Source: a virus. Taken from it: a DNA stretch of 64,000 nucleotides. Below, one piece after another: positions 42,724 to 63,503 of the stretch (its first letter is position 1; the number at the start of each line of letters is the position of its first letter). The stretch is taken from positions 13 through 64,012 of IMG/VR virus record IMGVR_UViG_3300047160_035982. One strand, 5' to 3'. Below the pieces are notes generated by a model that searched no databases, had not been told where the DNA came from, and was given only the letters and a program-made list of their open reading frames with translations. The translations under genes were made by a program, and so were the position numbers.

Positions 42724-43365
42724 ATGAACGAGCATAATCCAGTCTCAAACGTCCGCTGGGTACCGATAGAAAAGGTGCACGCCAACGATTACAACCCGAA
42801 CTCAGTGGCCTTGAACGAGCTGCGGCTGCTTTATGTCTCGATTCGCCACGACGGGTACACCATGCCCATCGTCACCGTGCACGACCCAAAGCGCGACCGC
42901 TACATCATCGTCGACGGCTTCCACCGTTACATGATCATGAAGCGCTACCGGGACATTTACGAACTCAACCAGGGCCATATTCCGGTGGTGGTGATTGACA
43001 AGGACGTCAATGACCGGATGGCCTCCACGATCCGGCACAACCGGGCTCGGGGGAAGCACGCCATTGCGGGCATGAGCCAGTTGATCTTTGAGATGTTAGC
43101 TAACGGGTGGACCGACGCCCGCGTCTGCGATGAGCTGGGCCTTGAGAAGGAAGAGTTTATCCGGCTCAAGCACATCACCGGGTACGCCAAGTTTTTCGAG
43201 CATGGCAAGTACAGTCAGGCGCGGATGACCACCAAACAGATCGAGGAAAAGCTCAAGTTTGAGCAGAGCAAAACAAATGAACTGGAACAAGGACGACACT
43301 CTAAAAGCAGATCAAACCGGGCATCCGGTGCTGTGGAGCGAAACGCTCGCAACACTCGGGTATAA
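42724..43365 (+). CDS. ParB/Srx-like protein (IbrB/YbdM family)
   Basis: NDYNPNSV, GYTMPIV, IVDGFHRY, MASTIRHNRARGKH. Confidence 0.88.
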   Translation: MNEHNPVSNVRWVPIEKVHANDYNPNSVALNELRLLYVSIRHDGYTMPIVTVHDPKRDRYIIVDGFHRYMIMKRYRDIYELNQGHIPVVVIDKDVNDRMASTIRHNRARGKHAIAGMSQLIFEMLANGWTDARVCDELGLEKEEFIRLKHITGYAKFFEHGKYSQARMTTKQIEEKLKFEQSKTNELEQGRHSKSRSNRASGAVERNARNTRV

Positions 43366-43813
43366 CGTGACCTACCCGCAGTTGGACCCGGTTTGGTTCT
43401 TCGAATTCTGGGGCGATTGGAAGAGCACGAGACGCCTCAAAACCTTTGGCCACAAAGACCCCAAAGATAAGACCTCACCGCATTTTCTCTGCACCCGAGG
43501 CGGTACGGTGATGCACACCGATCCGGGGTTCGTCCGCTATGCGCTCCAGATCCAGCTTTACAACGACGGCTTCGTTGTCCACGGCCTGGAAGACGACCTC
43601 GACCTGATGCCGCTCTTCAATCCGGGGCTGGTCATTCTGCTGGATACGTGGTCGCCGCATCAGGTGAGCCGGGATCGCCGGCTGGGCAAGGCTGGCCCAA
43701 ACAAGCTCCTCATCGGGATCGACTTCCTGCACCGGCCTGATATCGACACGGAGCTACCAAAGCTGGTGGAGCACATTCCAACCCTGACTTTACCGACCAA
43801 TGGAGATCGTTAA
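43277..43813 (+). CDS. Possible Fe(II)/2-oxoglutarate dioxygenase (cupin fold)
   Basis: HTD...H pattern (MHTDPG ... TWSPHQV) in a beta-rich sequence. Confidence 0.45.
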   Translation: MNWNKDDTLKADQTGHPVLWSETLATLGYNVTYPQLDPVWFFEFWGDWKSTRRLKTFGHKDPKDKTSPHFLCTRGGTVMHTDPGFVRYALQIQLYNDGFVVHGLEDDLDLMPLFNPGLVILLDTWSPHQVSRDRRLGKAGPNKLLIGIDFLHRPDIDTELPKLVEHIPTLTLPTNGDR

Positions 43814-44327
43814 GGAGATCAAGCTGGTGCCGGTCATGGAGATCCGGCCATACCATCGCAACGTGCGAATCCACGAGAAGACCGTCGAGGAGCTGGTCAA
43901 GGTGATCCCGTACGTAGGGTTCAACGTTCCCCTGCTCCTTACCCGCTCGAACGTCATCGTTAAAGGACACGCTCGGTGGAAGGCCGCAATCCAGTTGGGC
44001 CTGGAGCGCGTGCCGTGCGTTTACACCGATTCCGATGAGGAGCTGATCAAGCTCGACCGGCTGACCGATAACAAGATTCAGGAGTTGTCAGACTGGGATG
44101 ACGAGATGCTGCCCTCGGAGCTGGCCAGCCTGAACCTAGATTTCGAATTTGACCTGAGCGCACTGGGCTTCAACCTCAGCCTGCCGTCGGCCATCGAGAC
44201 AGAGAAACTTGAGTCGGAATCCATCACCGACGAGGACGTGCGCAAGACCGTGCCGATGAACATGGACGAGTACGAAAAGGTGATCTGTTCCAAGTGCGGC
44301 AACCAGATGTTCATCAAGAAGGAATGA
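43800..44327 (+). CDS. ParB N-terminal domain protein with C-terminal CxxC
   Basis: IRPYHRNVRIH...GFNVPLLL...IVKGHARWKAA; CSKCG. Confidence 0.8.
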   Translation: MEIVKEIKLVPVMEIRPYHRNVRIHEKTVEELVKVIPYVGFNVPLLLTRSNVIVKGHARWKAAIQLGLERVPCVYTDSDEELIKLDRLTDNKIQELSDWDDEMLPSELASLNLDFEFDLSALGFNLSLPSAIETEKLESESITDEDVRKTVPMNMDEYEKVICSKCGNQMFIKKE

Positions 44328-44521
44328 GCACGACCAAAATCTATCTCGGCGACGCGCTCTACGCGGAAATCGATGGCAACATTATCCTTCTGACAACCGA
44401 AACCGAGGGCATCGCGACTAACAAGATTTACTTAGAGCCGGAGGTCCAGCAGGCGCTCTGGGATTACATCGAGTGGCTCAAACACCATAAGCAGCAGGGC
44501 GATGAGAGTAGACCTGAATGA
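44324..44521 (+). CDS. Hypothetical phage protein
   Basis: KIYLGDALYA...NKIYLEPEV; coupled. Confidence 0.5.
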   Translation: MSTTKIYLGDALYAEIDGNIILLTTETEGIATNKIYLEPEVQQALWDYIEWLKHHKQQGDESRPE

Positions 44522-44732
44522 AACCGAGGTGGCGTATCTGTTTAAGCTCTTGGAGGCTGGCCGACAGTATTATGGGTTGTTAGCCGGGAACGGCAAATGT
44601 TCTGAATCAAACCGTCGAATGTACGGTCTGGTGGAGGGCTTGAGACGGAAGCTTGAAAAGTGCCAAGAAGTGACCGCAAAGGGGAGAAGCGGACCTCGGC
44701 GGATCTCATTTAGCTCCCCCCCCGACCTTTGG

Positions 44733-44930
44733 CTAGGCCTGTTCGGCCTCCTTCTCCTTGGCCCATCGGGCGTTAGCGGCTGCGCGGGCCTGCTCTGGGC
44801 TGCGTGCCTTGAGCTGGCCCCGCGCCTTTCTACCGGCAAGTGAGGCGGTGAACGCTTTAACCTTCGCGACGTTCATCTTTTTGAGCAGCTCATCCTCGTC
44901 AAGGTTTTGTCTGCAATGCGGACATCTCAT
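44733..44930 (-). CDS. Small basic protein with CxxC
   Basis: MRCPHC...; preceded by an operator-containing promoter. Confidence 0.5.
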   Translation of the reverse strand: MRCPHCRQNLDEDELLKKMNVAKVKAFTASLAGRKARGQLKARSPEQARAAANARWAKEKEAEQA

Positions 44931-44936
44931 GGTCTT

Positions 44937-44965
44937 AACATACGCAACAGTTGCGAAAAAGTCGA
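44937..44965 (-). promoter_or_regulatory. Sigma70-like promoter with operator CGCAACWGTTGCG in the spacer
   Basis: TCGACT-N17-TATGTT; operator 44943-44955. Confidence 0.6.
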
Positions 44966-45002
44966 GCCGGGTTTTTAGGCCCGGCTCAGCGGTTAGTGGG
45001 GG

Positions 45003-45383
45003 TTACTCGTTGTTTCGCCTTTCGGCTTCCGCCAGCGCTGCTTCCAGATTGTCGAACTTGGCTAGCAGGATGAACTTCTTTTCCCCTGCCAACTTGATTT
45101 CGAGCGTGAACTCCGCTCCCTGGCGCTTCGGGTTTCCGACGGCGAACTTTCCATTTTTGCCCTCGGCGTACCGCCAGCCGTTCTTGTGCGCGGCAAACTC
45201 CAAGTTACCGGCCCGGTTGACCTCTGGTGCCCCGGCCTTCGCGGCCTTGGCCTTTTTCGCGGCCTTCGCGGCCTTGGGAGCTTTCGGGGCCTTCACCTTT
45301 TTGGCCCTCTTGGGCTCGGCTGCGGCTGGCATCTCGACCACTTCCGGGTTCTCCACTGCGTTGTTCATTTCGTTGTTTCCCAT
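45003..45383 (-). CDS. Lys/Ala-rich (histone H1-like tail) protein
   Basis: AKKVKAPKAPKAAKAAKKAKAAKAG. Confidence 0.6.
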   Translation of the reverse strand: MGNNEMNNAVENPEVVEMPAAAEPKRAKKVKAPKAPKAAKAAKKAKAAKAGAPEVNRAGNLEFAAHKNGWRYAEGKNGKFAVGNPKRQGAEFTLEIKLAGEKKFILLAKFDNLEAALAEAERRNNE

Positions 45384-45431
45384 TTTGGTTGTCCTTCGAT
45401 TTGTTAGGGTTAGTTGTTTTTAACTGTCGCT

Positions 45432-45460
45432 ACCATAGCGCAACTGTTGCGCATTGTCAA
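45432..45460 (-). promoter_or_regulatory. Sigma70-like promoter with operator
   Basis: TTGACA-N17-TATGGT; operator 45439-45451. Confidence 0.75.
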
Positions 45461-45507
45461 GTGGGTAAAAGTTAGTTTCTTGTTAGAAAACGTTAGGTGG
45501 ACTGCTC

Positions 45508-45535
45508 TTGACATTGCGCAACTGTTGCGTATAAT
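45508..45535 (+). promoter_or_regulatory. Consensus sigma70 promoter with operator
   Basis: TTGACA-N16-TATAAT; operator 45517-45529. Confidence 0.8.
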
Positions 45536-45558
45536 AGCACCTTTACTAACAAAGATGC

Positions 45559-45587
45559 CTGACCAGTGCGCAATTGTTGCGTATAGT
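45559..45587 (+). promoter_or_regulatory. Sigma70-like promoter with variant operator
   Basis: CTGACC-N17-TATAGT; CGCAATTGTTGCG 45569-45581. Confidence 0.6.
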
Positions 45588-45870
45588 TAGAGACATGGAG
45601 AACATGAAAAGACTAACCAAAATTACCATCGCTCACAAAAGCGACGATCCCGAAAAGGAGATCGAACTAATGGATCGACTGGACGCGGTCTTCGGCGAAG
45701 ACCCGGAATATCTCGGCCCCATCCAAATCGGACGGCATGGTCGGGACTACCGGGAGATTATCTACCACGTCTCCCCCATCCATAATCAGGAGCAGGTTAT
45801 CTCCATCGCCCTCCGCATCTACGGCCTGGACCTCTACGAAGTGAAATGTGAGGACCACAATGAAAACTGA
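45574..45870 (+). CDS. Hypothetical protein
   Basis: ORF downstream of the tandem promoters; real start probably ATG 45595 or 45604. Confidence 0.5.
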   Translation: MLRIVRDMENMKRLTKITIAHKSDDPEKEIELMDRLDAVFGEDPEYLGPIQIGRHGRDYREIIYHVSPIHNQEQVISIALRIYGLDLYEVKCEDHNEN

Positions 45871-45988
45871 ACGCTTCGCGGACGTGCCCGACACCCGCTG
45901 GATCGTTTTCAAGATGGAGCGCTACGAGCTTTCCCGAGATGGTGGTGTTCCGCTTGCGGGACACCGAAGGGTTTAGGCTCAAGTTCGT

Positions 45989-47155
45989 TCATGCTGTTTT
46001 GAATGCGACAACCTTCCCGTCCTCAGTTGGCCTAATTCCGAAGTAAGCCAAAGCTTCCTCTTTCGGGACGCCGGCGAGATAGTGACGCCCGAGCATCATC
46101 ACGCCCAGGTGCCCCATTCTCAGCGAGGTCAACGGCACGTCATCGTACATCGCGACGTGGTAGCTGGCAAAGGAATGCCGCATCCCGTCCTGAATCCACT
46201 TGGACCCGGCGATCTTGTTGGCGCTGACACGAACATCGCGGAGCTGCTTGTTGGTGAAGGGAAGCACCTTGCCTTCCACCTTACCGCCGCGATCCCGGTA
46301 CGCCATGAGCCACGCCATCGCGTTTTCAGGGATTTCAACTTGGCGTCCGCGCCGTCCGCCCTTGGCGACCTTGGCCCGGATGTTCAGCCTGGCGCGAGCC
46401 CAGTCAACCGCGCTCCACTCAAGCGCTCCCATCTCACCTTCGGGCCGGACACCGCAGAAGAATCCAAGCGTGAAGTACGGCACGAGGTTCAGCTCATACT
46501 CGAGCGCGTACTGCAGATATTTGCTGACCGTGCTTACCGGGTAGATCTCGACCTCACGCGGTGCGCCCGTGTCGGGCATGTCGAGCCGATCGATCGGGTT
46601 CTTGCCAGCCGCCAGAAACTCTTTGCGGATGGCGTAATTGAAGATGGCCCGCAGGTGACGCATGTGCTGGGCGCGGGTGGTTTCAGGGATCAGTCGCAGG
46701 ATCTCCCAGAAGGCGTCACTGCTCACGTCCTGAATCTGCTCATCTCCAAGAGGCGTGAATTTGCTCTTGGTGCCGCGCAGGCTCCTCCAGTACTTGGTAT
46801 CCGGCTTGGCCGCAACCTCGATGTAAGCGTCGCAGGCCTCGGCAAAGGTGCGCTCTGGCAGGCGGTCGGCCTGAGCCCGTAGGAAGAACCGGACAGCCTC
46901 CAGCACGTTGAAGCCGTTACCGGCCTCGTCCAAGAGCTGCTTGGCGTGAAGGAAATCGCGGGACTCGCTCCCGCTCAACGTGGCGATGACTTCGCGGGCC
47001 TCGGGCGTGCCGCGCTCGAATTCAAGCAGCGCGGCCTGCGCTTCCTCCTTGGTCGCGTAGTAGCGCCGGACAGGTTTACCCAAACCCGTGAGGCGTGGTG
47101 GAAGCCAGAATCCCCACGGCTTGGGTCGTCCCGGTGTTTTAGAGATTGTAATCAC
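45989..47155 (-). CDS. int: Tyrosine integrase (prophage)
   Basis: GVRPEGE (R), MRHSFASY (RH), RMGH, RHY (Y); adjacent to the att site. Confidence 0.92.
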   Translation of the reverse strand: MITISKTPGRPKPWGFWLPPRLTGLGKPVRRYYATKEEAQAALLEFERGTPEAREVIATLSGSESRDFLHAKQLLDEAGNGFNVLEAVRFFLRAQADRLPERTFAEACDAYIEVAAKPDTKYWRSLRGTKSKFTPLGDEQIQDVSSDAFWEILRLIPETTRAQHMRHLRAIFNYAIRKEFLAAGKNPIDRLDMPDTGAPREVEIYPVSTVSKYLQYALEYELNLVPYFTLGFFCGVRPEGEMGALEWSAVDWARARLNIRAKVAKGGRRGRQVEIPENAMAWLMAYRDRGGKVEGKVLPFTNKQLRDVRVSANKIAGSKWIQDGMRHSFASYHVAMYDDVPLTSLRMGHLGVMMLGRHYLAGVPKEEALAYFGIRPTEDGKVVAFKTA

Positions 47156-47189: not shown

Positions 47190-47354
47190 CCCCATGTTAT
47201 AAATTTGTTACAATTTTCTGTAATAACTTTATTACAGCGGGTGGGCTGCCTGTAAGAATTTGTAATATTCTAATGTCTGCGGGGCCGGACACAACCTGAT
47301 TTCTCAGGACTCTCCACGAGGGAAATGGCTTTTTCCCTAGGCGCGGGCGGCTGT

Positions 47355-47412
47355 CTCGAAATCAGGCGTACGGGTAACCGTACCGTGGGTTCGAATCCCA
47401 CCCCTTCCGCCA
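47355..47412 (+). pseudogene. 3' half of tRNA-Ser(CGA): prophage attR and satellite attL
   Basis: CTCGAAA loop, TCAGG, long variable arm CGTACGGGTAACCGTACC, T-arm GTGGG-TTCGAAT-CCCAC, CCCTTCCG-CCA; no acceptor 5' strand or D-arm upstream. Confidence 0.85.
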
Positions 47413-47464
47413 GTCGTTGGAGGTGAACGACTTACGACGAATCACTCGATGAAAAGCCACTCGC

Positions 47465-47485
47465 TACATAACAGGATACATAACA
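47465..47485 (+). promoter_or_regulatory. Putative integrase arm-type sites (left)
   Basis: TACATAACA twice, 12 nt apart; mirrored by TACAGAAC twice, 12 nt apart, at 63381-63400. Confidence 0.55.
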
Positions 47486-47949
47486 AGAATCCTGGAAAGC
47501 GTCTGAACTAACTTTCGAACGGTCAGGAAAAGAGACGGGCAGGTCGGGGAAAACATAACAAAAACCCGAGCCTGCCGCGTCAGCACACGCACACAATAAC
47601 GATACGACTCGAGACAGTAACACAGTCGAATTCTGCCTCTGGGTCAAAAACAAACGCGCTTAGGATCGTCCCAGGTGCGTTTTGATAGAGCGAGCGCTAT
47701 GTCGCTATTGCCCGAAAAGCTCGCATCAGCAGACACGAAAGAAACGCGCCTCGGATACGCACATGCACGGATTGTTTCGCCCTCAAGCGAGCTTGAGACA
47801 CACTATGCTGCTGAAACAATCAGAAACAGCTCGCCCGGCAAAACCTGCAAATACGCACCGAGGCGCTCGCTCGTAATGTAACACGAAAAAGCGTTCACTG
47901 CACAAAGTCCTATCGACGAGGGACTTATCCAGCGTTATTTTGAGCGATC

Positions 47950-49101
47950 ATGCACGACCGATATTCCGATACGCTCGACCACCCGAGGACTCTGCTGCCG
48001 ACGACTCAACTGCCCGATTTCAGCCGTAATTTCGCAGAGCTCGAGAAGCGTTGTAAACGCCCCTATTCGATCCTCAAGGTTGTCCGCGCCCTTTCGGACA
48101 AGCCGTCGCGCTTAGAAGGTTTCGAGGCTGAAGTCGACCAAGAGCTGAAGTCGTTGAACCCACGGCGCAGCGTAGATGGAATATTGATCCCGCTCGAGGC
48201 ATTAGCAGTATCGCGCCGTGACTTGACGACAGGCGTGCTGCCAGTGATCCAAACGACAATTTCACCAGATGAGCCTATCCCGTTTCTGCGGGTGAAATCT
48301 GTCTGCGCCCGTTGCGGAGCGACGCTGCTCGACGGGTTGACTGGCGGCAATATTTCACTGCCTAGAGCTTATGCGACTGCAGGTGCTGGGTGGTACGGCG
48401 AGGTCGGTCCGGTCCCGAGCGCTGACCAGTCTCTCGATAACATTACACTTTCGCCGAAACTGATCGCTGGCTCGACGATCGTCTCGAATCAATTACTCGC
48501 GCAAAGCTCGCTCGATATCGAGAGATTTGTTACCCGCGATATCAGCGACGCAATCGCGGTCGCGGTCGACCAGGCTGCGCTCTACGGCGCAGGCTCGGCG
48601 ACGGTGCCAAAGGGGATCATGAGCTACGCGGCAAACGGCGCAGGCAACTACAGCTACGGGCTGCGATCCGCTAGTCAGTCTTTTGGCGGAGCGGCAACTT
48701 GGGCTGCTGTCTTGAGCTTCGAAAAAACGCTCGAAGACGGGCGAATCCAGAACGATGGCACTTTCACCTTTGTTTCGACATCAGCAACGCGCACAAAATG
48801 GCAGCAAATCGCCAAGGTCGCGACTTACCCCGAGTTTCTATGGCAACAGCGCGACGACGAGTTGGACGGTCGCGTAAACGGCCGGCGCGCAGTTTCGAGC
48901 GCGCAAATCAGCGGCGACATCGTGCTCTGCGGAAAATTCTCTGAAATGATTCTTGCGAACTGGTTAGGAGTCGAACTTTTAGTGAACACGTACAGCCGCG
49001 CGATCAACGCTGAGACCGTGATCCTTGCCACGATGCTGTGCGACGTCGGGATTAGATATCCATTAGCGTTCTGCGCATCACTGGACTCAGGGGCTCAGTA
49101 A
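47950..49101 (+). CDS. HK97-fold major capsid protein (satellite)
   Basis: GATLLDGLTG.NISLPR, WYGE, ITLSPKLIAG...SNQLLAQSSLDIE, AVDQAALYG. Confidence 0.88.
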   Translation: MHDRYSDTLDHPRTLLPTTQLPDFSRNFAELEKRCKRPYSILKVVRALSDKPSRLEGFEAEVDQELKSLNPRRSVDGILIPLEALAVSRRDLTTGVLPVIQTTISPDEPIPFLRVKSVCARCGATLLDGLTGGNISLPRAYATAGAGWYGEVGPVPSADQSLDNITLSPKLIAGSTIVSNQLLAQSSLDIERFVTRDISDAIAVAVDQAALYGAGSATVPKGIMSYAANGAGNYSYGLRSASQSFGGAATWAAVLSFEKTLEDGRIQNDGTFTFVSTSATRTKWQQIAKVATYPEFLWQQRDDELDGRVNGRRAVSSAQISGDIVLCGKFSEMILANWLGVELLVNTYSRAINAETVILATMLCDVGIRYPLAFCASLDSGAQ

Positions 49102-49108
49102 GATCTTA

Positions 49109-49240
49109 GGAAAAACGAAAAGGCCAGCTTTTACACTGACCTTTTCTCCATGCATTGCCTCGCCAGACCGCGCCCAGCCATACCACGCCAAAGCGAGCCT
49201 TGCCGTGACGTCTTCAATATCGACTCGTTTGAATCACGCT
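49109..49240 (-). ncRNA. Orphan (NN-GGY)10 pentamer tract with flanking hairpins (putative guide D)
   Basis: Ten RCC-NN pentamers at 49157-49206; hairpin 49117-49146 whose loop CCAGCTTTTACACTGA resembles 58021-58037. Confidence 0.75.
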
Positions 49241-49414
49241 TAAAGCAAAAAAGAAGCCCAGGCATTGGCACTCGCCAAGCTGGGCCTCGGACGTGACTCG
49301 TCTCAATTAGAGACATACTGGCGCTTGACCGTGAGAGAAGGCGCATGTCATCATTGCGTCTTCTCATGAACGTGACCCACCTCAGAGCTGCCCTCAGAGC
49401 CGCTGCAACGAGAG

Positions 49415-50260
49415 ATGGTCACGCCAAACGGCGAAGGTAACCAGCAGCATTTCGACAACGCACGCCTCGAGGCAGTTATCGCTCGCTTTCAGCGCAATGG
49501 CGATGCGTCGAGTTTGAACGAAATCGTTCAACTGAGTCAGCAACGCGCATTGACGCTGATAAGATTCAACGGCACGACCTCTTACGGCACAGAGAGCGAG
49601 CTGCTCAGCGATATTAACTACAAACTGCTGCGCTCAGTTAGGAAGTTCGACCCGTCGAAAGGTAGCGCGTTTACGTTTATCTCGGCCGTGATCACGAGCA
49701 CGCTTAAAACGTCAGTCACGGTCACGCGCAAGAATTGGCTGCGAAACTGCGAACTCAGCGACGAACTAGTGAACTCGCTGCACACGAACGAAATCGATCA
49801 CTCGACTGCAGACGATCTCACGCATCGCATCAAGAGCGAAGCGAAAACAATGTTGACTGATCAGATCGAGATCGAGGCGCAACGCTGGTTTGTTGAGAGT
49901 TTTTGTCAGGAAGGATTCGCTTATCGCCGACATCATTGCAGCGACGCATGCATGGGCGTTTTCCAATTGAGTCATGCGCGGTCGAGAGAATTGTACGATT
50001 TGACGATGCTCGAAGTTAGACGGGCGTTGTACGACGACGTCAAGCGACGTCAGCAGATCGCCCCTGGCAGATTGCTCGGCACGCGCAGCGCTTGGGTCAC
50101 GCAGTATGCCGCGCTCTTGAGCGCTGACGAATTCACGAAGTTTTATTTTCTGATGAAAAATCTTGCGCCGTACTTGCTGCTGATGATCGCCGACCCGTCA
50201 AAGACCAATAATCATCGCAGAGATAGGAATCAACAATCGGTCGCCAAACGCTCGAATTGA
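49415..50260 (+). CDS. Sigma-70 region 2-like protein
   Basis: ELLSDINYKLLRSVRKFDPSKGSAFTFISAVI. Confidence 0.6.
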   Translation: MVTPNGEGNQQHFDNARLEAVIARFQRNGDASSLNEIVQLSQQRALTLIRFNGTTSYGTESELLSDINYKLLRSVRKFDPSKGSAFTFISAVITSTLKTSVTVTRKNWLRNCELSDELVNSLHTNEIDHSTADDLTHRIKSEAKTMLTDQIEIEAQRWFVESFCQEGFAYRRHHCSDACMGVFQLSHARSRELYDLTMLEVRRALYDDVKRRQQIAPGRLLGTRSAWVTQYAALLSADEFTKFYFLMKNLAPYLLLMIADPSKTNNHRRDRNQQSVAKRSN

Positions 50261-50392
50261 TCTTGTACGGCGATCCTGCCGCAACGCCACTGTTTCAATA
50301 AGTTGCGCTCGACCGCGTATAATTTCGAAGTTTTCGCGCGAAAACTTTATCTTTGCTTTGAACGATTTTGATCATCGTCACTCTTGGAGAGA

Positions 50393-50986
50393 TTATTTTT
50401 TGAACGATTTGCATACCTCTTCGGTCGACTGAACTTTCGCGCGTCTCTTCGGCTTGCTCTTGCGCACGTTCTTTATCGCGACTGCGTCCTCGGCCGCTTC
50501 CCCGTTGCCGTTCTTCTCACTATTGCGCCTGAGCCGCGTCTGACTGCGAGCAACGTTATCGAGAATAATTGGAATGCTGCTCAATTCTCGCAACAAATCA
50601 TCCTGCTCGGAGCGATCCAGTTTCGAAACCCGTATCCGAGACACGACCGCGTCAGCCAACGCTGCGAATGCTGACGAGAGCGCCGAGCGATTCAAGACGC
50701 TCGCTTCGACGATGCTGTTTTCAAGCTCAAGCTTTCGCCGAATCTCGCGCTGAGTCCCGAGCTTCTCGACGTGCATCGAGCCAAAGATTGCTTGGCAGAT
50801 CTGCTCGGTCGTATAGCAAAACGCCGCATCAGGCTCAGCGCCGTCTTTGACGAGATTCTTGCGCAACGTATGTGGAGCTAGCTTGAATTCGATTGCTGCG
50901 CGATCGACCGACCATTTCAGGGGATCTGGTGGGACGTTGCATCGCACAGCATGGCGCATTCGAAGATGGTCGTCAGATTCACACAC
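50393..50986 (-). CDS. Terminase small subunit-like protein (Nu1/DUF1441-like)
   Basis: WSVDRAAIEF..APHTLRK wHTH-like region, YTTEQICQAIFG, RRKLELEN coiled coil; start uncertain. Confidence 0.6.
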   Translation of the reverse strand: MCESDDHLRMRHAVRCNVPPDPLKWSVDRAAIEFKLAPHTLRKNLVKDGAEPDAAFCYTTEQICQAIFGSMHVEKLGTQREIRRKLELENSIVEASVLNRSALSSAFAALADAVVSRIRVSKLDRSEQDDLLRELSSIPIILDNVARSQTRLRRNSEKNGNGEAAEDAVAIKNVRKSKPKRRAKVQSTEEVCKSFKK

Positions 50987-51188
50987 TATCGCAACTGAAA
51001 ACGTCTAGAGCGAAGTCGATCAGCCGCTCGGTGCTTGCGCTACGATCGACTGAGACGCGTCCTGATCGGCGAGACGTCTGATCCACCAGCTTTACGCACT
51101 CGCTCATCTGCCAACGCAAAGATAAAATGTTGGGTCGCGTCCAATATTGGCTTTATTAATTCAAGAGAGTGACGTATGCATAAGTAGA

Positions 51189-51602
51189 ATGAAAAACTTT
51201 TCAGACCATTGGCTCCATAACCACGACGTTGCACATAAGCATAAAGTCAACCTTGATTTTAACTGTCCTCATTGCGGGCAGACTGTCTATGAGACCTTTT
51301 TCCCGATAGACGAATACAATCCTGAGTCCTTTTCTTATTACTTCTGTGGCTGTGCTAACATCAGCTTTTCTGAACCGCAGAAAATGACCAAAAAACGCTG
51401 GCTGGAACTATACCCACAATCACGCGAAGAGATGGAGCCCCTCGACTTCAACTGCCCCGTTTGCAACCAGCCTGTTTACGGAACCATGATGTGGGCGGAC
51501 CTTTATCATTTCGATTGCGGCTGCGGCTACATCAACACCGAAAACGCGATCATGACTCCTGAACGATGGGCCAAAACGACTAAACATAAACTCGAAGACT
51601 AA
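51189..51602 (+). CDS. Protein with two tandem Cys-rich (zinc-ribbon-like) repeats
   Basis: DFNCPHCGQTVY...CGC...MTKKRW and DFNCPVCNQPVY...CGC...MTPERW. Confidence 0.6.
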   Translation: MKNFSDHWLHNHDVAHKHKVNLDFNCPHCGQTVYETFFPIDEYNPESFSYYFCGCANISFSEPQKMTKKRWLELYPQSREEMEPLDFNCPVCNQPVYGTMMWADLYHFDCGCGYINTENAIMTPERWAKTTKHKLED

Positions 51603-51834
51603 AGACCGAAACGCGCTTTCGGCGCGTCAGTGCGTGATGCGCACTCTGACGATGGTCGTCAGCCAACTCTCAACACAGAAAAACGAACATGATAATCTTG
51701 CTCTATTTACTGCTGCTCGCGCTCGCAGTGAGAGCTTTGCGCTCGGCCAGCACGCCGATAGGCTGCCTGAGCTGGGTCGTGCTGTTCGCGATCATCTTTA
51801 TGTTTCTAAGCACACGATTTTTTCATCCAGCACT

Positions 51835-52008
51835 ATGAAAGGCGGACCACGCAAGGGAGCAGGTCGACCACGCGGAGCGGACAAGCGGACAGTCACGATC
51901 AAGCTCGCAGTCGAGGTGATCGATCTGCTTCACGAGCTGCCAAAAGGCTCGATGTCTGCGTTCGTCGAGCGAGCGTTGCTGCGCGAATTTAAGCGAACGA
52001 TAAAGTAA
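51835..52008 (+). CDS. Small ribbon-helix-helix-like DNA-binding protein
   Basis: GGPRKGAGRP...VTIKLAVEVIDLL...MSAFVERAL. Confidence 0.55.
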   Translation: MKGGPRKGAGRPRGADKRTVTIKLAVEVIDLLHELPKGSMSAFVERALLREFKRTIK

Positions 52009-52831
52009 ACCACGAGCTCCGGCGTTCTCCGCAAATCCGAGTGATGTTGATTCAACTTCACTTAACTTGACGCATCGAAGGTCTCTCTGCCCTCGCTCGC
52101 CTGCTTGCGAGTACATCGACGCGCGCAGCGCAGCGAGCACCTCCCCAGAATTTCATATAATCGAGTAAAATAGGTCGCAATCCATTCCATATCAGCTATT
52201 TACACTTAAAGCATTGTACGAATTTTTGGCGGTCAGCCCATCGCCGCGATCGGAGCGCTCGCCGTGCCTACCCCCTTGGAGAGGACCCAGGATTCTACGG
52301 GGCGAAAGAAAATCTCGAAATTGCTATAGCTCTCGCATCACGCGAGGGTGCGTCACTGGTGTGATCACGCTCAAAGCAATCTCGATCGGTCGCGCTCACT
52401 ATGCGCGCCAACGTGCGCATCTCGACGCCACAAGCGTTTTGATTGCTGAGCAGTATGGACACAGTGCAAAGAAAATCTGCCGCGCTCTGGCGTGATCTGC
52501 ATGTCGATGTCGGGCGACATATCTCTGAGGTCGTGATCATCGATTACAGGATTGCGAGATCGCGAACATTCAGATCCTGAAAAACGTGCTGCTCGCTTGC
52601 TTGCTGACAGTGGAGTTGGAACGTCGCAACTGTTGGCACGACATGTAAGAAAATCGAAGGCGAGATCAGCTCATCGTACATATTTTATGTACGATGATCA
52701 ATCGCAGCATCTCTTAATCGAACACGGATCTAGAGGGGTTAAGAACCGTAGGAATCATGTCGTCGCGAACGACGTTATCGAATCTTCGATCAGCGAGAGA
52801 ATTCGACAAGTTCACTGCCAGCCCCTCATCG

Positions 52832-53146
52832 TTAATCAAGATAGGGCGTCAGCAGACGCTCTTTCTCTAAAGCTTCGAACCATTGCTGGATTTCCGAGCA
52901 ATTACTCGCGAGGAATATCGCTCTTTGCAGTTTGATGCCCCACAGTCGTTTCTGTTCCGAGTCATCCACCCATTCAAATGTGCTGCATTTGTCAGGGTCG
53001 TAAATGTACTGCTCTATGGTATTGAGGACTTCGTCATCATAATCCGACTCTATCTTGGACTCGTCGATATAGCCGCCCTTAATCAATTCGCTAGCAAGTT
53101 CATCTTTCGTCATGCGCCTATACATCAATCGGCTGCGCGCAAACAT
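52832..53146 (-). CDS. Hypothetical acidic protein
   Basis: 104-aa ORF. Confidence 0.35.
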   Translation of the reverse strand: MFARSRLMYRRMTKDELASELIKGGYIDESKIESDYDDEVLNTIEQYIYDPDKCSTFEWVDDSEQKRLWGIKLQRAIFLASNCSEIQQWFEALEKERLLTPYLD

Positions 53147-53392
53147 CCAGTAGAATCTTCGATCAGAGCGCGAAAAGCTTATTTCAAATGCAAACTATCA
53201 AATCGTTTGTCGCCGTCGACGAGGTGAATGCTTGCTGAGATGCGTCGCTGTCTGTTTTCCTGACGGCGCGTCTCGCGTTTTTGACGGCGTTCCTGCTGAC
53301 GTTCTCGCCGTTCAAGTTCCTTGAATCTGTAAGGTCGAGCCATAGTATAACACTGCGTAGAGCTTGACTATTTCGCGTGTGAGACGTTTTGA

Positions 53393-53707
53393 TTGTTAAG
53401 AGCTCCTAATTATATCGTCTCTGCAGTTGTGAAAAGATTAGAGTTTCCTTTTACGCGCAATGGGTTCACGCACGAGCTGATCGAGCGCAACGACATGATC
53501 TGTCTCGTGAAACGCTCGAAACGTGAGCATTCGCATTATGAGGTCGTGCGGCTGCGCATTGAAAAAGACAAAGAACGCTTTGGGAAGTTCTATCCTGAAC
53601 ACGAGAGGTATCCGAGCGACGAAGACTGGGGCTCATATGGATTCACGTATCCTGCGGCTGATCTTGCCGAGGCTCAGAAGCGGTTAGGAGAAATTGCTGA
53701 CCATTAG
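53393..53707 (+). CDS. Hypothetical phage protein
   Basis: YEVV...ERYPSDEDWGSYGFTY. Confidence 0.5.
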   Translation: MLRAPNYIVSAVVKRLEFPFTRNGFTHELIERNDMICLVKRSKREHSHYEVVRLRIEKDKERFGKFYPEHERYPSDEDWGSYGFTYPAADLAEAQKRLGEIADH

Positions 53708-53731
53708 CGATTGTTGTAACCTGTTGATTCA

Positions 53732-54016: not shown

Positions 54017-54326
54017 ATGTTTGCATTATGCAATCATTACACGCAAGAACACGTAAAAACGACAAGCGTACTCGCTTTGTAAGTCATTGATAATCAGCGC
54101 AGTTTCTATGGGCTATAACCGATAGATTTTCCTTTAACGGGAACGGTTTTTCAGGTGAATCAAACCGCGCCCAAATCGAATCCTAGCGCGATTACCGAGC
54201 ATACCGAAGCAAGCAATGGCATGACTGCGACCAGTCGCGTCGATCGTTTGGGCCGAATCCTGACGCGATTACAGGTGGGCCGATTTTCAATGGATTTTAG
54301 ACGTCAGAGGCTGTCTTTTCTTCATG

Positions 54327-57940: not shown

Positions 57941-58007
57941 ATGTCATGAAATACTTCACGAGATCGTTGAGACTCGTCAGCGACGCGTACGCACTTGTTA
58001 GGACCCC

Positions 58008-58373
58008 AGAATGCCGCCGACCAGCTTGTTAAACTGATCGGCGGACTTCCATGCCAACGCCTTGCCTTGCCCGACCACCCCAGGCCTCACCCGGCCTCAC
58101 CTTGCCCGGAATGCCGCTGTCTGCTGAACAAGCCAAACAGCGGACTTCCATGCCATGCCTCGCCTTACCGGGCCGGACCCCGCCGCGCCACACCTGGCCG
58201 CGCCAAGCCGTACACTGCCCTGCCTTGCCGCGGAATGCCGCCCACTCTTTGCGAATGAGCGGACTTCCATGCTTTGCCTTGCCCGACCACGCCGCGCCAA
58301 AACGCGCCAAGCCCAACCTGGGCGTGCCTCGCCGGGGAATGCTGCCGACTCTTCCTTTAATCGGCAGATTTCC
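58008..58373 (-). ncRNA. Array of three (NN-GGY)n pentamer tracts separated by four conserved hairpins (putative guide RNA array)
   Basis: Tracts A 58053-58107, B 58152-58231 (16 pentamers), C 58271-58335 (13 pentamers); hairpins 58008-58050, 58108-58149, 58232-58268, 58336-58373. Confidence 0.88.
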
Positions 58374-58384
58374 ACAGCCTGACT

Positions 58385-59095
58385 TCACGCGTTCACTAAC
58401 TTTTGACGTTTCATCCATTGAGTTAAAGCCTGCTCAAGTTTCAGTAATGCCTCGACTGTGTCGTCGTCATCAGCCTCGATGTAATCGTCAGTAAGCAGGA
58501 TTGTTAGATCATCAGCCAACTTAATAACCTTTTGTCCACTGAGCGAGCGTTGGCGTTCGTCGATTGCTTTCACTTCTTTTTTGATCCACTGCTCATCCTT
58601 GCTCTGCATCTTGATCTGCAGCGGTTCAACTAGAGGCGCTTTTAAAACAACAGGTTTGACTGCGTCCGAGTCACTCCACACGCCGCGTTCACTAATAGCT
58701 TTCTCGAATTCAGAAACCGGGATGCGCACGATCTTGGCAATCTCCTCTGAAGAAAACTTCATGCGGGTTAACTGCATCGCTGCACTAAGCTTTTCCTGAT
58801 AGCTGAGGCCGTGACCGTGTGTGGCGTTGTCTTTAACGGCTAAAGGGAACCATTGTGTTTCGAGCTCTTTGGTTACGATTGCAGCGATCCGCGGCAACTT
58901 CCTTCGTCGGTGCGCCTCGTATCGGTGACGGCCTCCGATAATCACATAACGATCATCGCGTTTACCAACGAGAATCGGTGGCAAAACATCGCCTACGCGC
59001 AAGGCATCGAGCAGCGACTCGATGTGTCTCCAACTAACTTGATTGCGCGGATAGATCGTCTCATCAATCAAAATTCGGTCGATGCTGATATACAT
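58385..59095 (-). CDS. ParB/Srx N-terminal domain protein
   Basis: IYPRNQVS...LPPILV...YVIIGGRHRYEAH...NATHGHGLS. Confidence 0.8.
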   Translation of the reverse strand: MYISIDRILIDETIYPRNQVSWRHIESLLDALRVGDVLPPILVGKRDDRYVIIGGRHRYEAHRRRKLPRIAAIVTKELETQWFPLAVKDNATHGHGLSYQEKLSAAMQLTRMKFSSEEIAKIVRIPVSEFEKAISERGVWSDSDAVKPVVLKAPLVEPLQIKMQSKDEQWIKKEVKAIDERQRSLSGQKVIKLADDLTILLTDDYIEADDDDTVEALLKLEQALTQWMKRQKLVNA

Positions 59096-59098: not shown

Positions 59099-59743
59099 TC
59101 AGGCTGCCTTTCTCTTTTTAGATTTCTTTTCTTCAAGAATCGTCGGCTCTGAATCGAAACCGACAATCTCGGGTTCAGGAATAAAAGCTTCTTCGCGCTG
59201 CGGCAACAACTCGAAGCGTTTTAGGTAATACTGCCCAAATGGGCCTTTCTTCTCTGGTCGAAAATCGCAGACGCCATTGAGCACTCCTGCAGTTTTGATT
59301 ATTTGCGGCCCAAATTTCTGCATGATGGGGATCGGAATCCATTCATCGCGGAAGTGCAGCTCAAACGTCACCTCCCACGGCCAGATCTTCGGTCGGCTAT
59401 GTGGCACGCGATTTTTCTGAATGACGACTGAGCGCGTATCGATCTTGTACTCTGTCGTGTTCAACGAAACGAATTCTGGCGTGATCGCGACACAACCGAT
59501 CATCGCTGTCGACATTTTCAACTTGCCGACTTTATAGTTGCCAGCAGCCTTAATGAAAGACCGGTAGAACGCTACCCCAGGAATCGCCAACGAGGATTTG
59601 TCGTCGGTCCAGTATAAGCGCTTTCTTGCTTCCTCAGCTGGATCGTAACTGACTTGCTTAACGCTCGTCTCACTGTTCATCGAGCTGATGTTATTCAATA
59701 AAGCGGGGGTCAACCCGCAAACTGTAATTTTGATTTGTCTCAT
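59099..59743 (-). CDS. RAMP/Cas7-like RRM protein (Vipr-like effector)
   Basis: ITVCGLTPALL (beta1), LAIPGVAFYRSFIKAA (IPG-helix), RPKIWPWEVTFEL, Gly-rich loop AGVLNGVCDFRPEKKGPFGQY. Confidence 0.75.
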   Translation of the reverse strand: MRQIKITVCGLTPALLNNISSMNSETSVKQVSYDPAEEARKRLYWTDDKSSLAIPGVAFYRSFIKAAGNYKVGKLKMSTAMIGCVAITPEFVSLNTTEYKIDTRSVVIQKNRVPHSRPKIWPWEVTFELHFRDEWIPIPIMQKFGPQIIKTAGVLNGVCDFRPEKKGPFGQYYLKRFELLPQREEAFIPEPEIVGFDSEPTILEEKKSKKRKAA

Positions 59744-61613: not shown

Positions 61614-62213
61614 TCATGTAATCTTCGATCGACGAGTGGCGTTGCGCAGTTTTGACAGCCCAGCTTTTTTGAAGAGACGCGCCCATTCGGATGATGTCTT
61701 TGGAATTCGTAAGCCGGCTTGCTCGAAAATCTCGACTGCTCTCTTGCGCACTTCCTTCTTGAGCGGCCAATCGTTCTCGTCGTCACCTTTGCACAAGTCA
61801 CGAAAAGCAATCATCACGACGCGCACGCCGTGCATGTCAGGTTCTGGGGATTGAGCGAGTCTGACAGTGTCAATCAACGCTCGCAGGATTTCGTCTTCCT
61901 TATAAAACACGGCAGCAAGGATCAGCTCTTTGAAATCTGCAATGAATACGCGGTCATCGCATGACGGATGCGTATTTGTTATTCTGAACCACGGGGCGAA
62001 TTCCGGGTTTTGTTTCGCGTATTGTCGCCACCTTTGTAATTCCTGCCAGATCTCGGTCCGAAAGACGAATTTCGTATCCGTGTATCGTTTGACCGCTTGC
62101 AAAAATTCCCGTGGATAGTTTTTCCCGACATCGGTCATTTGATGTCGCAGTAAGGAGTAACGACCCCAAAGCGACCTCGGCAAATCATGCGAAGAGTATT
62201 CGTCGTCGCTCAC
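61614..62213 (-). CDS. Hypothetical protein
   Basis: 199-aa ORF coupled to the integrase stop. Confidence 0.5.
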   Translation of the reverse strand: MSDDEYSSHDLPRSLWGRYSLLRHQMTDVGKNYPREFLQAVKRYTDTKFVFRTEIWQELQRWRQYAKQNPEFAPWFRITNTHPSCDDRVFIADFKELILAAVFYKEDEILRALIDTVRLAQSPEPDMHGVRVVMIAFRDLCKGDDENDWPLKKEVRKRAVEIFEQAGLRIPKTSSEWARLFKKAGLSKLRNATRRSKIT

Positions 62214-63376
62214 TGTTGCCCCTCCAATTTCGGCAAGCGCGGGATGAGCTGCGTTGCTGCTTTGATCGATTCGAGGTCTTCGTGGATGTAGCGATCGACG
62301 GCACCGCCAGCGGCGTGGTTCGTAACTCTGCGCGTGATCTCGCGAAGCGACGCTTGGTTGAACACGTTACTCGCTGCGGTATGGCGAAAACTGTGAAACG
62401 AGAGCGCTCGCACAGCTCGCCCTTTACCCGTGTTGCCTTGACGCAGCAGACGCTTTTCGATTCCTGCCTTATCGAGCAGCTCGACAAAACATATCGAAAG
62501 ACCGTGTGCGCCCTTAATGCCTTTATTCGCCAAAGTGGGAAACACCGGCGCGTCAGGATCGTCGGGCACGGGGCGACTGCTCAACCAATCGAGAAAGTCA
62601 GGGTGCAGACCGAGACACGCCTTCGCATTTGTCTTTTGCTCGCGGAATGTGACGATCGAGTTCGCGACATCGAGGTTCGACCATTTGAGACTCTTGCAAT
62701 CACCGAGCCGCGCCCCGGTGCCGTACGCGAACAAGATCAGCCCTTGCCAATCCGAGTCGGCGATCGAGAGCAGAGCGGCGATTTGATCTCCCGTGAATGT
62801 CTCTTTCGCAAGCGGCTCGCTCTTTTCGGGCGTTGTCGCCATGACAGGGTTGAAACGAAGTTTGCCGATCTTTCGCGCTTTCTCGAAGGGCGCCGACAGG
62901 TACTTGCGGATCAGTTTGTTGATCGTCGCTGACGATCGCCCTTCTTTACGCAAGAGTCGGACGAACCCTTCGATGTCTGCGGTCGTGATCGATTCGAGCC
63001 GACGCGTTGCCCCGCGTTCACCGAGATAAGCAATGAACTCGTCGACCGCTTGCCCGTAAGCTTCGAACGTCGATGCAGCGATTTGCCCCTCTTTCGAGTC
63101 GAGCCATTCGCGCAACCAGTCCTTTACGCTGACGTATCCGATCGTCGCTGCGCCGATGCGTGCGAGCGTCTCGTTCAGGATTTGCAGAACTCGATCGTGC
63201 GACAACTCGACGTTTACAGCAGCGTCCTCGGCGGCCTGCCACGCTTCGGTGATGATCTTCGCCTTGTTTTTGTCACGAGTTTTGGTTGAACGCCAGACAC
63301 GTCGACCGTCAGCGAGGCGCAGAGCGGCGTACCAGACACCTTTCGGCGAACGCGGATTACGATGAACAGAAGCCAT
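62210..63376 (-). CDS. int: Tyrosine integrase (satellite)
   Basis: TGARLGD (R), SFHSFRHT (HxxR), VTNH, DRYIH (Y); adjacent to attR. Confidence 0.92.
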   Translation of the reverse strand: MASVHRNPRSPKGVWYAALRLADGRRVWRSTKTRDKNKAKIITEAWQAAEDAAVNVELSHDRVLQILNETLARIGAATIGYVSVKDWLREWLDSKEGQIAASTFEAYGQAVDEFIAYLGERGATRRLESITTADIEGFVRLLRKEGRSSATINKLIRKYLSAPFEKARKIGKLRFNPVMATTPEKSEPLAKETFTGDQIAALLSIADSDWQGLILFAYGTGARLGDCKSLKWSNLDVANSIVTFREQKTNAKACLGLHPDFLDWLSSRPVPDDPDAPVFPTLANKGIKGAHGLSICFVELLDKAGIEKRLLRQGNTGKGRAVRALSFHSFRHTAASNVFNQASLREITRRVTNHAAGGAVDRYIHEDLESIKAATQLIPRLPKLEGQQ

Positions 63377-63476
63377 GAACTACAGAACGACATACAGAAC
63401 AAAAACTTTAAATACAGTTTGTTCCAGAACATCCAACTCGCTCGCGGATAGGTACTTACGAGAGAGCAAAAACGTT

Positions 63477-63503
63477 CCGTGGGTTCGAATCCCACCCCTT
63501 CCG
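63477..63503 (+). repeat. attR of the satellite (27-bp tRNA-Ser 3' duplicate)
   Basis: Identical to 47383-47409. Confidence 0.93.

What the first reader, a model, noticed from the sequence alone, without database searches (positions are those of the whole stretch)
48676..48924. Two guide tracts decode to near-self sites in the satellite capsid gene
Seen: the variable dinucleotides of tract B (plus strand AT TC TT GG GG CC GC AC TG GC AA GT CT CT TT GC), read as NN-x-NN-x, match 48676-48722 at 10/16 dinucleotides, 17/18 nt in the core 48679-48704. Tract D matches 48895-48924 at 7/10 dinucleotides (16/20 nt). Translated as codons they spell [IM]S[FL]GGPAT[CW]A[KN]VLL[FL]A vs own QSFGGAATWAAVLSFE, and S[SR]A[HQ][IM]T[KN][DE][FL]V vs own SSAQISGDIV. 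My rough binomial estimate for the B core is about 1e-4 per window, uncorrected for choosing the core. Inference: the true targets are capsid genes of sister satellites, with self spared by mismatches (or self tuned down).
Basis: partly seen in the sequence, partly recalled or inferred. Interest (0 to 1): 0.92.

Follow-up and report, generated by a model that had tools for sequence, protein, structure and literature searches.

The report
VIPR guides aimed at rival capsids
A 16-kb satellite-like element from a soil bacterium carries a recently described VIPR RNA-guided silencing system, and two of its guide RNAs fit the capsid genes of related elements better than they fit its own, so this is a natural example of a known mechanism and not a new one.

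Summary
Read with the rule "pair two bases, skip one", tract B matches 48676-48722 at 10/16 units. That is the best site in the window (next best 7; shuffled-guide P=0.0012). Tract D matches 48895-48923 at 7/10 (P=0.036 window-wide; P=0.0002 within the capsid gene). Both sites are in frame, and the skipped base is the wobble position.

The locus has the family's sequence and fold hallmarks:
- a 214-aa protein with a Cas7/Csm3-like fold;
- an adjacent ParB_N accessory gene;
- NN-GGY tracts separated by a conserved hairpin that shows compensatory changes;
- distant homologues that also sit beside NN-GGY arrays.

Guide B matches a related soil-metagenome capsid gene (L014) at 13/16, with 13 consecutive perfect units. 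Guide D matches six sister capsid genes at 8/10, and one homologue carries all ten predicted residues. The targeted genes lie in the same kind of element.

The near-self matches are best explained as a by-product of homology, because own 10/16 is the family median. Weak self-repression is not excluded. Verdict: a new member of a known kind.

The parts
48676..48722 (+). Near-self site of guide B in the element's own capsid gene (codons 243-258, QSFGGAATWAAVLSFE). Scores 10/16 units and 23/32 nt. Mismatched target units are 1, 6, 11, 13, 14 and 16.
48895..48923 (+). Near-self site of guide D in the element's own capsid gene (codons 316-325, SSAQISGDIV). Scores 7/10 units and 16/20 nt.
47950..49101 (+). 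HK97-type major capsid gene of the element (383 aa; Pfam Phage_capsid, E=1.4e-32).
49157..49206 (-). Tract D, a dispersed ('solo') vrRNA-like guide of 10 NN-GGY units. It is convergent with the capsid gene and lies 9 kb from the main array.
49105..49150 (-). Hairpin plus U-run following tract D. It looks like a terminator and is shared with the capsid gene's 3' end. It begins with the same ATGGA junction as the array handles, but the handle covariance model does not recognise it.
58152..58231 (-). Guide B, 16 NN-GGY units.
58271..58335 (-). Guide C, 13 units. Its best site is 58827-58864 in the adjacent ParB_N gene (9/13, P=0.0014).
58059..58108 (-). Guide A, about 10 units. No significant target was found in the window or in the fetched loci.
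58004..58385 (-). The whole vrRNA array: four copies of a conserved handle hairpin (58332-58378, 58228-58273, 58104-58154, 58004-58055) bracket guides C, B and A.
58385..59095 (-). The accessory (vap-like) gene, 236 aa with a ParB_N domain. The same pairing with vipr is seen in L124, L125 and L127.
59099..59743 (-). The vipr-like gene: a 214-aa single-RRM RAMP protein with a Cas7/Csm3-like predicted fold.
47376..47409 (+). Left copy of a 34-nt direct repeat that looks like a tRNA 3' end (T-arm and acceptor). Putative attL of the 16.1-kb element.
63470..63503 (+). Right copy of the direct repeat, 94% identical to the left copy. Putative attR, next to the integrase.
62210..63376 (-). Tyrosine integrase of the element.

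Best explanation
The window holds a 16.1-kb integrative, capsid-encoding, satellite-like element (about 47376-63503). It carries a complete VIPR system: a Vipr RAMP protein, a ParB_N accessory protein, a three-guide vrRNA array and one dispersed guide (D).

In the published mechanism, Vipr protomers polymerise on the GGY motifs of the vrRNA and present the NN dinucleotides. These pair with double-stranded DNA while skipping every third base, and the bound complex represses transcription.

Guides B and D are directed at two conserved stretches of the HK97-type capsid gene of related, competing elements. The element's own capsid gene is homologous to those targets, so it carries weaker copies of the same sites: 62% and 70% of units, below the published 80% threshold for a natural target.

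Shown here:
- the matches and their statistics;
- the better matches in non-self capsid genes;
- the fold of the protein;
- the conserved array architecture in homologous loci.

Inferred: that the RNAs are expressed, that an RNP forms, that rival capsid genes are silenced, and that the element's own gene escapes.
For: The code and its statistics.
- Only the 1-nt skip, antiparallel decode gives outliers.
- Window-level shuffle P is 0.0012 for B, 0.0014 for C and 0.036 for D. D within the capsid gene gives P=0.0002.

Non-self targets fit better than self.
- B scores 13/16 with 13 consecutive perfect units in L014, and 12/16 in three more loci. The best shuffled guide scored 11.
- D scores 8/10 in six sister capsid genes. 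Homologue P0047 is 10/10 at residue level.
- A soil run that also holds the element carries the sister allele 48911 G>C, which turns Ser into Thr.

The system's identity.
- The Vipr model has pLDDT 80, and its top PDB matches are Csm3 and type VII Cas7 (E about 2e-6).
- The protein matches phrog_4652.
- Homologues at 24-52% identity in L124, L127, Pseudomonas phage LESphi2 and phage DSL-LC04 all sit next to NN-GGY arrays.
- The handle hairpin has 13 pairs, 4 of them with compensatory changes.

Element bounds come from the tRNA-like direct repeat.

Literature.
- 1-nt skip rule, wobble alignment, targets on either strand, the 80% threshold, and satellites whose vrRNAs target related satellites: 10.64898/2026.04.26.720920.
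- Filament and triplex structures: 10.64898/2026.04.26.720927.
- Solo vrRNAs, and self scores lower than non-self scores: 10.64898/2026.10.15.759431.
Against: - No perfect target was recovered. B's best hit mismatches at both terminal units next to the 3' handle and at the 5'-most unit.
- The cryo-EM paper reports that unwinding proceeds 3'-to-5' from the tail. Mismatches next to the tail could therefore matter.
- D's best DNA-level hits (17/20 nt) exceed self (16/20 nt) by a single base.
- D's tail is not recognised by the handle model, so whether this Vipr loads it is uncertain.
- Counted per nucleotide, the self sites of D (0.80) and C (0.81) touch the 0.8 identity score used in the October 2026 paper.
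- There is no RNA evidence; all runs that hold the element are DNA.
- Guides from L124 and L127 found no significant targets in my small set.
Confidence: 0.8

Rival explanations
1. Autoregulation. The partial matches are functional, and guides B and D (and C on the vap gene) weakly repress the element's own capsid and VIPR genes. For example, this could keep capsid expression low until induction. On this view the mismatches tune the strength of repression and do not abolish it.
For: - All three significant best hits in the 64-kb window fall inside the same 16-kb element.
- Per nucleotide, D self scores 16/20 = 0.80 and C self scores 21/26 = 0.81. Both are at the 0.8 score used for target calls in 10.64898/2026.10.15.759431.
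- D sits directly behind the capsid gene.
Against: - Better non-self matches exist for both B and D.
- Own B score is just the median of 93 homologous sites, which is what homology alone predicts.
- The discovery paper found no self hits at 80% or more in any clade. It also reports that disturbing NN pairing abolished silencing.
Confidence: 0.12
2. The real target is the capsid gene of the helper phage, not that of sister satellites. The satellite would silence the helper's capsid so that particles are built from its own capsid protein.
For: - The B site is a motif conserved even in IMG/VR phage capsids that are only about 32% identical to the element's own (11/16 in L094 and L109).
- The element encodes a capsid protein but no recognisable portal, terminase or tail genes. 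It must therefore borrow those from a helper.
Against: - The best hits (12-13/16) lie in loci with satellite-like or chromosomal context. These have an integrase, the conserved 281-aa neighbour gene, a histidine kinase or a sulfatase beside them, and no head module.
- No phage genome with a hit of 80% or more was found in IMG/VR or in the representative genomes.
Confidence: 0.06
3. Chance, or a protein-binding repeat in which the NN bases are mere spacers. On this view the pentamer tracts are binding sites for a TRAP-like ring protein, or G-rich structural repeats, and the capsid matches are coincidence.
For: Triplets repeated with 2-nt spacers resemble TRAP-binding RNA (established knowledge). 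This was my first alternative, before any statistics.
Against: - The shuffle P values are 1e-3 or lower for B and C, and only for the 1-nt skip, antiparallel decode.
- B has 13 consecutive perfect units in a homologous gene from another locus.
- The protein has a Cas7-like fold, not a TRAP fold.
- The mechanism has been shown experimentally for homologous systems.
Confidence: 0.02

Closest known systems
VIPR systems (Viral Interference Programmable Repeat) of coliphage SUSP1 and a Pseudomonas fulva prophage; bioRxiv 10.64898/2026.04.26.720920 and 10.64898/2026.04.26.720927
   Same: - A small single-RRM RAMP protein with an adjacent accessory gene.
- vrRNAs of 9-16 GGY/NN pentamers followed by a structured 3' element.
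- An array downstream of the genes plus one separate vrRNA.
- The 1-nt skip rule, with the skip on the wobble base.
- Targets in mobile-element genes, and no strong self hit.
   Different: - The protein is only distantly related. No SUSP1 hit came up in the phage collection; the nearest phage homologues are LESphi2 at 24% and DSL-LC04 at 32% identity.
- The accessory gene carries a ParB_N domain, which the papers' main texts do not mention.
- The 3' element is a simple hairpin with a 2x2 internal loop. A pseudoknot was not tested.
- The host is an integrated satellite-like element of an uncultured soil bacterium.
Satellite-encoded and phage-encoded solo vrRNAs (F5 satellites of SUSP1); bioRxiv 10.64898/2026.10.15.759431
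   Same: - A guide unit placed away from any vipr gene (tract D).
- Guides whose self-match score is lower than their score on relatives.
- Guides aimed at rivals' VIPR genes (guide C on the vap gene).
   Different: - Here the satellite carries its own vipr and vap genes, so D need not hijack a helper's protein.
- D's tail differs from the array's handle.
- The targets are capsid genes, not the recombinase or host REP decoys.
Class 1 CRISPR-Cas backbone (Cas7/Csm3 filament on crRNA)
   Same: - RAMP fold, with top structural matches to Csm3 and type VII Cas7.
- Protomers that polymerise along a guide RNA.
- Periodic interruption of base pairing.
- A repeat-derived hairpin that brackets the guides.
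   Different: - There are no cas1/cas2 genes and no spacer-repeat array.
- The period is 5 nt in the guide against 3 nt in the target, not 6 against 6.
- The guide information is spread over dinucleotides.
TRAP (trp RNA-binding attenuation protein) binding sites
   Same: Conserved triplets separated by 2-nt spacers in an RNA.
   Different: In TRAP sites the spacers carry no information. Here the spacers decode to gene sequences at P of about 1e-3 or lower, and the protein has a RAMP fold.

Membership tests
VIPR system | A small (about 20 kDa) Vipr protein with a single-RRM RAMP fold, G-loop and thumb. | tested here: met
   - 214 aa; AlphaFold2 model with pLDDT 79.8.
- The top 50 PDB matches are Csm3, Cmr and type VII Cas7 chains (E from 2e-6, TM about 0.5).
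- AFDB cluster matches include Cmr6 and Csm3.
- The invariant G-rich motif G..DFRPEKKGPFG is in the position of a G-loop.
VIPR system | Sequence homology to experimentally characterised Vipr proteins (SUSP1, P. fulva). | tested here: inconclusive
   - tblastn against 50,697 phage records gave only LESphi2 (24%, E=2e-7) and DSL-LC04 (32%, E=6e-8). SUSP1 did not appear.
- Both of those homologues do sit directly downstream of NN-GGY arrays.
- No direct comparison with the SUSP1 protein was made.
VIPR system | vrRNAs made of 9-16 tandem pentamers: conserved GGY alternating with variable NN. | tested here: met
   - Tracts of 13, 16, about 10 and 10 units.
- The same is seen in homologous loci L124, L127, L128 and L129.
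VIPR system | A conserved structured 3' tail after each tract. | tested here: met
   - A 13-pair hairpin, 4 pairs with compensatory changes, across the window and L124.
- The covariance model finds it 4 times in the window.
- It does not find tract D's tail. A pseudoknot was not examined.
VIPR system | An accessory vap gene next to vipr. | tested here: met
   A ParB_N protein lies immediately downstream. The pairing is conserved in L124, L125 and L127.
VIPR system | The 1-nt skip rule: matches appear only with one skipped base and fall in coding sequence with the skip on the wobble position. | tested here: met
   for spacing and polarity. All B, C and D sites are in frame.
VIPR system | A natural target with at least 80% NN match outside the source contig, and none on it. 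| tested here: met
   - B: 13/16 = 81% in L014. D: 8/10 = 80% in six loci.
- Self scores are 62%, 70% and 69% of units.
- Counted per nucleotide, self D is 0.80 and self C is 0.81, which is borderline.
VIPR system | The vrRNAs are expressed, co-purify with Vipr, and repress matched dsDNA targets. | not testable with these tools
   Only DNA runs from soil metagenomes hold the element.
Phage satellite | An integrative element with an integrase and att repeats, its own replication genes, and an incomplete set of virion genes. | tested here: met
   - A 34-nt tRNA-like direct repeat, with copies 16,094 bp apart.
- An integrase, an AAA_25 primase/helicase-like gene and a capsid gene. No portal, terminase or tail hits.
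- Several ORFs have no family hit, so absence of these genes is not proven.
Phage satellite | Mobilisation by a helper phage. | not testable with these tools
   No helper was identified.

The most novel reading that the evidence does not exclude
The sub-threshold self matches are not just leftovers of homology. They would act as a tuned brake, so that the same guides that silence rivals' capsid genes also hold the element's own capsid (and vap) expression at a set level. VIPR would then be both a weapon and an internal dosage regulator. Tract D, with its terminator-like tail convergent on the capsid gene, would be a dedicated cis-linked regulator. A ParB_N-type accessory protein might add CTP-dependent spreading from the bound site.
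Probability: 0.1. Interest if true: 0.6.

Novelty: new member of a known kind. Interest (0 to 1): 0.35.

Why it matters
The case shows that the published VIPR code can be read straight from an uncultured soil bacterium's DNA and used to predict who fights whom. Here a capsid-encoding satellite-like element carries a full VIPR system and points two guides at conserved stretches of its relatives' capsid genes.

This extends the natural-target catalogue beyond Enterobacteria and Pseudomonas, and beyond recombinase and regulator targets. It documents a ParB_N accessory gene conserved with this Vipr clade. It also gives a clean natural pair of matched and near-matched alleles, L014-type against self, for measuring how many mismatches VIPR tolerates. 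It does not change the understanding of the mechanism.

Tried and rejected
The tracts have period 5, and the list is a decode.
- Rfam gathering-threshold search of the whole window found only a tRNA.
- PADLOC had no hit for the four genes.
- Single-sequence capsid searches of the genome and viral collections found no relatives.
- Alignment-based searches found only capsids at 38% identity or less in IMG/VR and two distant MAG hits. The close family is known only from metagenome contigs.
- DNA for the best D candidates, P0047 and P0032, is not on record.
- Guides from L124 and L127 gave no score above their shuffles against the window plus 127 loci.
- Guide A has no significant target.
- Guide C's best score on vap homologues is 10/13 at residue level. 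The predicted residues P1, A7 and R11 occur in homologues, but never together.
I repeated it without them.
- The discovery paper's supplementary files are not held. I could not check whether this locus or a ParB_N vap type is already listed.
- The TRAP-like spacer reading was rejected on the statistics and the fold.

Full report
**What is there.** The finding refers to "tracts" that lie outside its coordinates. On the minus strand at 58385-58004 there is an array of strict 5-nt repeats, NN-GGY. Guide C has 13 units (58335-58271), guide B has 16 (58231-58152) and guide A has about 10 (58108-58059). Each guide is bracketed by a conserved hairpin of the form GGAAGTCCGC...GCGGCATTCC. A fourth tract, D, has 10 units at 49206-49157. 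It sits alone on the minus strand just behind the capsid gene (47950-49101, +; Pfam Phage_capsid E=1.4e-32) and is followed by a terminator-like hairpin. Immediately upstream of the array, on the same strand, are a 236-aa ParB_N protein (58385-59095) and a 214-aa protein with no Pfam family (59099-59743).

**Checking the observation.** I scanned both strands of the window with spacings of 0-4 bases between dinucleotides.
- With one skipped base, B's best site is 48676-48722 (10/16 units, 23/32 nt).
- D's best site is 48895-48923 (7/10 units, 16/20 nt).
- C's best site is 58827-58864, in the ParB_N gene (9/13 units).
- The other spacings give only background (5-8 units), apart from the trivial self-hit of each tract at spacing 3.
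- For B, the score distribution over about 128,000 positions ends at 7 (two sites), and then there is the single 10.

Ten thousand shuffles of unit order give window-wide P=0.0012 for B, 0.0014 for C and 0.036 for D. Given that B already points to the capsid gene, D's chance of reaching 7/10 inside that gene is 0.0002. Parallel, unit-flipped or order-reversed decodes give no outlier.

**What it is.** A literature search found that this architecture and this code were published in 2026 as VIPR, for Viral Interference Programmable Repeat.
- The discovery paper (10.64898/2026.04.26.720920) describes a Vipr protein of about 20 kDa that is an early-branching RAMP, an accessory vap gene, and vrRNAs of 9-16 GGY/NN pentamers with a structured 3' tail.
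- It also describes recognition of double-stranded DNA by the NN bases under a "1-nt skip rule", with the skipped base usually on the codon wobble position, targets on either strand, and no PAM.
- It calls natural targets at 80% NN match or more, and found no self hit above that level.
- It notes that some satellites encode vrRNAs directed at closely related satellites.
- A cryo-EM paper (10.64898/2026.04.26.720927) shows the Vipr filament sequestering GGY and presenting NN, with unwinding proceeding from the 3' end of the vrRNA.
- A third paper (10.64898/2026.10.15.759431) shows satellite-encoded solo vrRNAs, guides aimed at rivals' VIPR genes, and self-match scores that are systematically lower than non-self scores.

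**Membership tests.**
- The 214-aa protein was modelled from 15 homologues (pLDDT 79.8). Its closest solved folds are Csm3, Cmr and type VII Cas7 subunits (Foldseek E from 2e-6, TM about 0.5). Its AFDB neighbours include Cmr6 and Csm3.
- It has an invariant glycine-rich motif near the C-terminus and matches phrog_4652.
- Its homologues are few and mostly metagenomic. Wherever enough DNA is available, they sit next to NN-GGY tracts.
  - L124 (52% identity) has a three-guide array with the same handle.
  - L127 (30%) has a long staggered array after a ParB_N gene.
  - Pseudomonas phage LESphi2 (24%) and phage DSL-LC04 (32%) have arrays directly upstream of the gene.
- The handle hairpin has 13 pairs, 4 of them with compensatory changes between the window and L124.
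- A covariance model built from the handles finds four copies in the window, three in L124 and a truncated one at the edge of L125/L126. It does not find D's tail.
- I did not obtain a direct comparison with the SUSP1 protein, so that one criterion stays inconclusive.

**The element.** A 34-nt direct repeat that looks like the T-arm and acceptor end of a tRNA occurs at 47376-47409 and at 63470-63503. The left copy continues into CCA, and the right copy abuts a tyrosine integrase (62210-63376). The 16.1 kb between the repeats holds the following:
- the capsid gene and tract D;
- a conserved 281-aa gene;
- small ORFs;
- an AAA_25 primase/helicase-like gene;
- the VIPR locus;
- DUF2786/DUF7168 and DUF3102 genes.

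No portal, terminase or tail gene was recognised. This is a capsid-encoding, satellite-like integrative element, and the B, C and D sites are all "self" in the strict sense. Runs that hold parts of it are all soil metagenomes.

**Testing the interpretation.** The code ignores the wobble base, so I first looked at residues. Among 94 capsid homologues, every residue that the guides predict but the own gene lacks does occur at the homologous position. For B these are Pro at unit 6, Asn or Lys at unit 11 and Leu at unit 14. For D they are Thr at unit 6, Asn at unit 7 and Phe at unit 9. One homologue (P0047) reads SSAQITNDFV, which is all ten D units.

I then fetched 119 capsid-bearing loci and scanned them at DNA level.
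- Guide B matches L014, whose capsid is about 53% identical to the own one, at 13/16 units and 29/32 nt. Units 3-15 are all perfect, and the site is in frame.
- Three more loci reach 12/16.
- Five hundred shuffled guides never exceeded 11 over the same 748 kb.
- B's three mismatches in L014 are its terminal units.
- Guide D matches six capsid genes of the 72-77% clade at 8/10 units and 17/20 nt.
- The DNA of P0047 is not on record.
- A soil run that holds the element also holds contigs with 48911 G>C. This is the Ser-to-Thr allele that restores one D unit, so the sister allele turns up in soil runs that also contain the element.

The context of the targeted genes is satellite-like. The capsid + 281-aa gene + 197-aa gene module recurs in both clades, and L048, at 12/16, has the 281-aa neighbour. 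L005 and L014 show an integrase or ordinary chromosomal genes beside a lone capsid gene, with no head module.

**How to read the near-self sites.** The B site lies in a very conserved capsid motif (xTFGGxxTWxxVLxFE). Across 93 homologous sites the B score ranges from 5 to 13, and the own gene's 10 is the median. The near-self match is therefore exactly what homology to the real target predicts, and I see no sign that the own gene has specifically escaped.

For D, the own gene differs from the clade consensus at one guide-read position (Ser for Thr). That is only a weak hint of self-avoidance.

By the unit criterion all self sites are below 80%. Counted per nucleotide, D (0.80) and C (0.81) touch the 0.8 score used in the October paper. 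Weak self-repression therefore cannot be excluded, and I keep it as the main rival (about 0.12). A helper-phage capsid as the true target remains possible but has no support from context (about 0.06).

**Guide C and guide A.** Guide C has the same sense as the ParB_N mRNA, which agrees with DNA targeting on either strand. In nine vap homologues the residues it predicts (Pro1, Ala7, Arg11) occur but never together, and the best score is 10/13. This fits the published pattern of guides aimed at rival VIPR loci, but no target at 80% or more was found. Guide A has no significant match anywhere I looked.

**Verdict.** The gapped code, the protein, satellite-against-satellite targeting and the lower self scores are all already described. 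This is a new member of a known kind. Its modest points of interest are a full VIPR carried on a soil satellite, a ParB_N accessory gene, capsid genes as targets, and a dispersed guide with a divergent tail.

Noticed in passing
window 47320-47412 and 63470-63503: The att repeat is the 3' part of a tRNA with a long variable arm. I read a CGA anticodon loop by eye, which suggests tRNA-Ser. ARAGORN and Rfam call no tRNA here, and the 5' acceptor strand does not pair. The copy at attL may be a remnant, with the intact gene elsewhere.
   Followed up: partly
window 41436-47155: Directly left of attL lies a second island with its own integrase (45992-47155, -; phrog_1). It also holds a PAPS-reductase-like gene (41436-42554) and two ParB-like genes (42532-43365 and 43800-44327). 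A 26-nt repeat occurs four times, at 45435, 45513, 45565 and 47164. This looks like tandem islands at one site.
   Followed up: no
window 58042-58352 (soil runs X2, X3): Contigs from other soil samples join the conserved handles across different inserts. One insert reads as other NN-GGY units on the minus strand. Related elements therefore seem to carry different guides between the same handles, which suggests guide turnover.
   Followed up: partly
window 48911: Run X2 carries G>C here (AGC to ACC, Ser to Thr) in 4 contigs, together with 48906 A>G at a wobble position. This is the sister allele that raises the guide D match from 7/10 to 8/10.
   Followed up: partly
L127:11321-11786: A distant Vipr homologue (30% identity) with a ParB_N neighbour has at least seven back-to-back guides separated only by GAGGAC or AGGGAC. 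This resembles the 'staggered arrays' mentioned in the discovery paper. It lies beside IS21-like and group II intron genes.
   Followed up: no
window 58827-58864: Guide C's near-self site in the ParB_N gene scores 9/13 (P=0.0014), and the guide has the same sense as the mRNA. The vap homologues carry the predicted Pro1, Ala7 and Arg11 separately. The best residue-level score is 10/13.
   Followed up: yes
window 49415-50260 and loci L013, L018, L023, L032, L048, L059, L060, L120: A 281-aa gene with a weak Sigma70_r2 hit always follows the capsid gene in this element family (49-72% identity). It may be the element's late-gene regulator.
   Followed up: no
window 54711-54922: Just upstream of the primase/helicase-like gene there are tandem 16-17-nt repeats (54711-54753), a third copy at 54788, and a 15-nt direct repeat at 54891 and 54908. 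These are candidate iterons or a replication origin.
   Followed up: no
L125:1-30 and L126:1-30: A truncated copy of the handle hairpin lies at the very start of these contigs, just upstream of vipr. In this relative the array precedes the genes, as it does in L124.
   Followed up: partly
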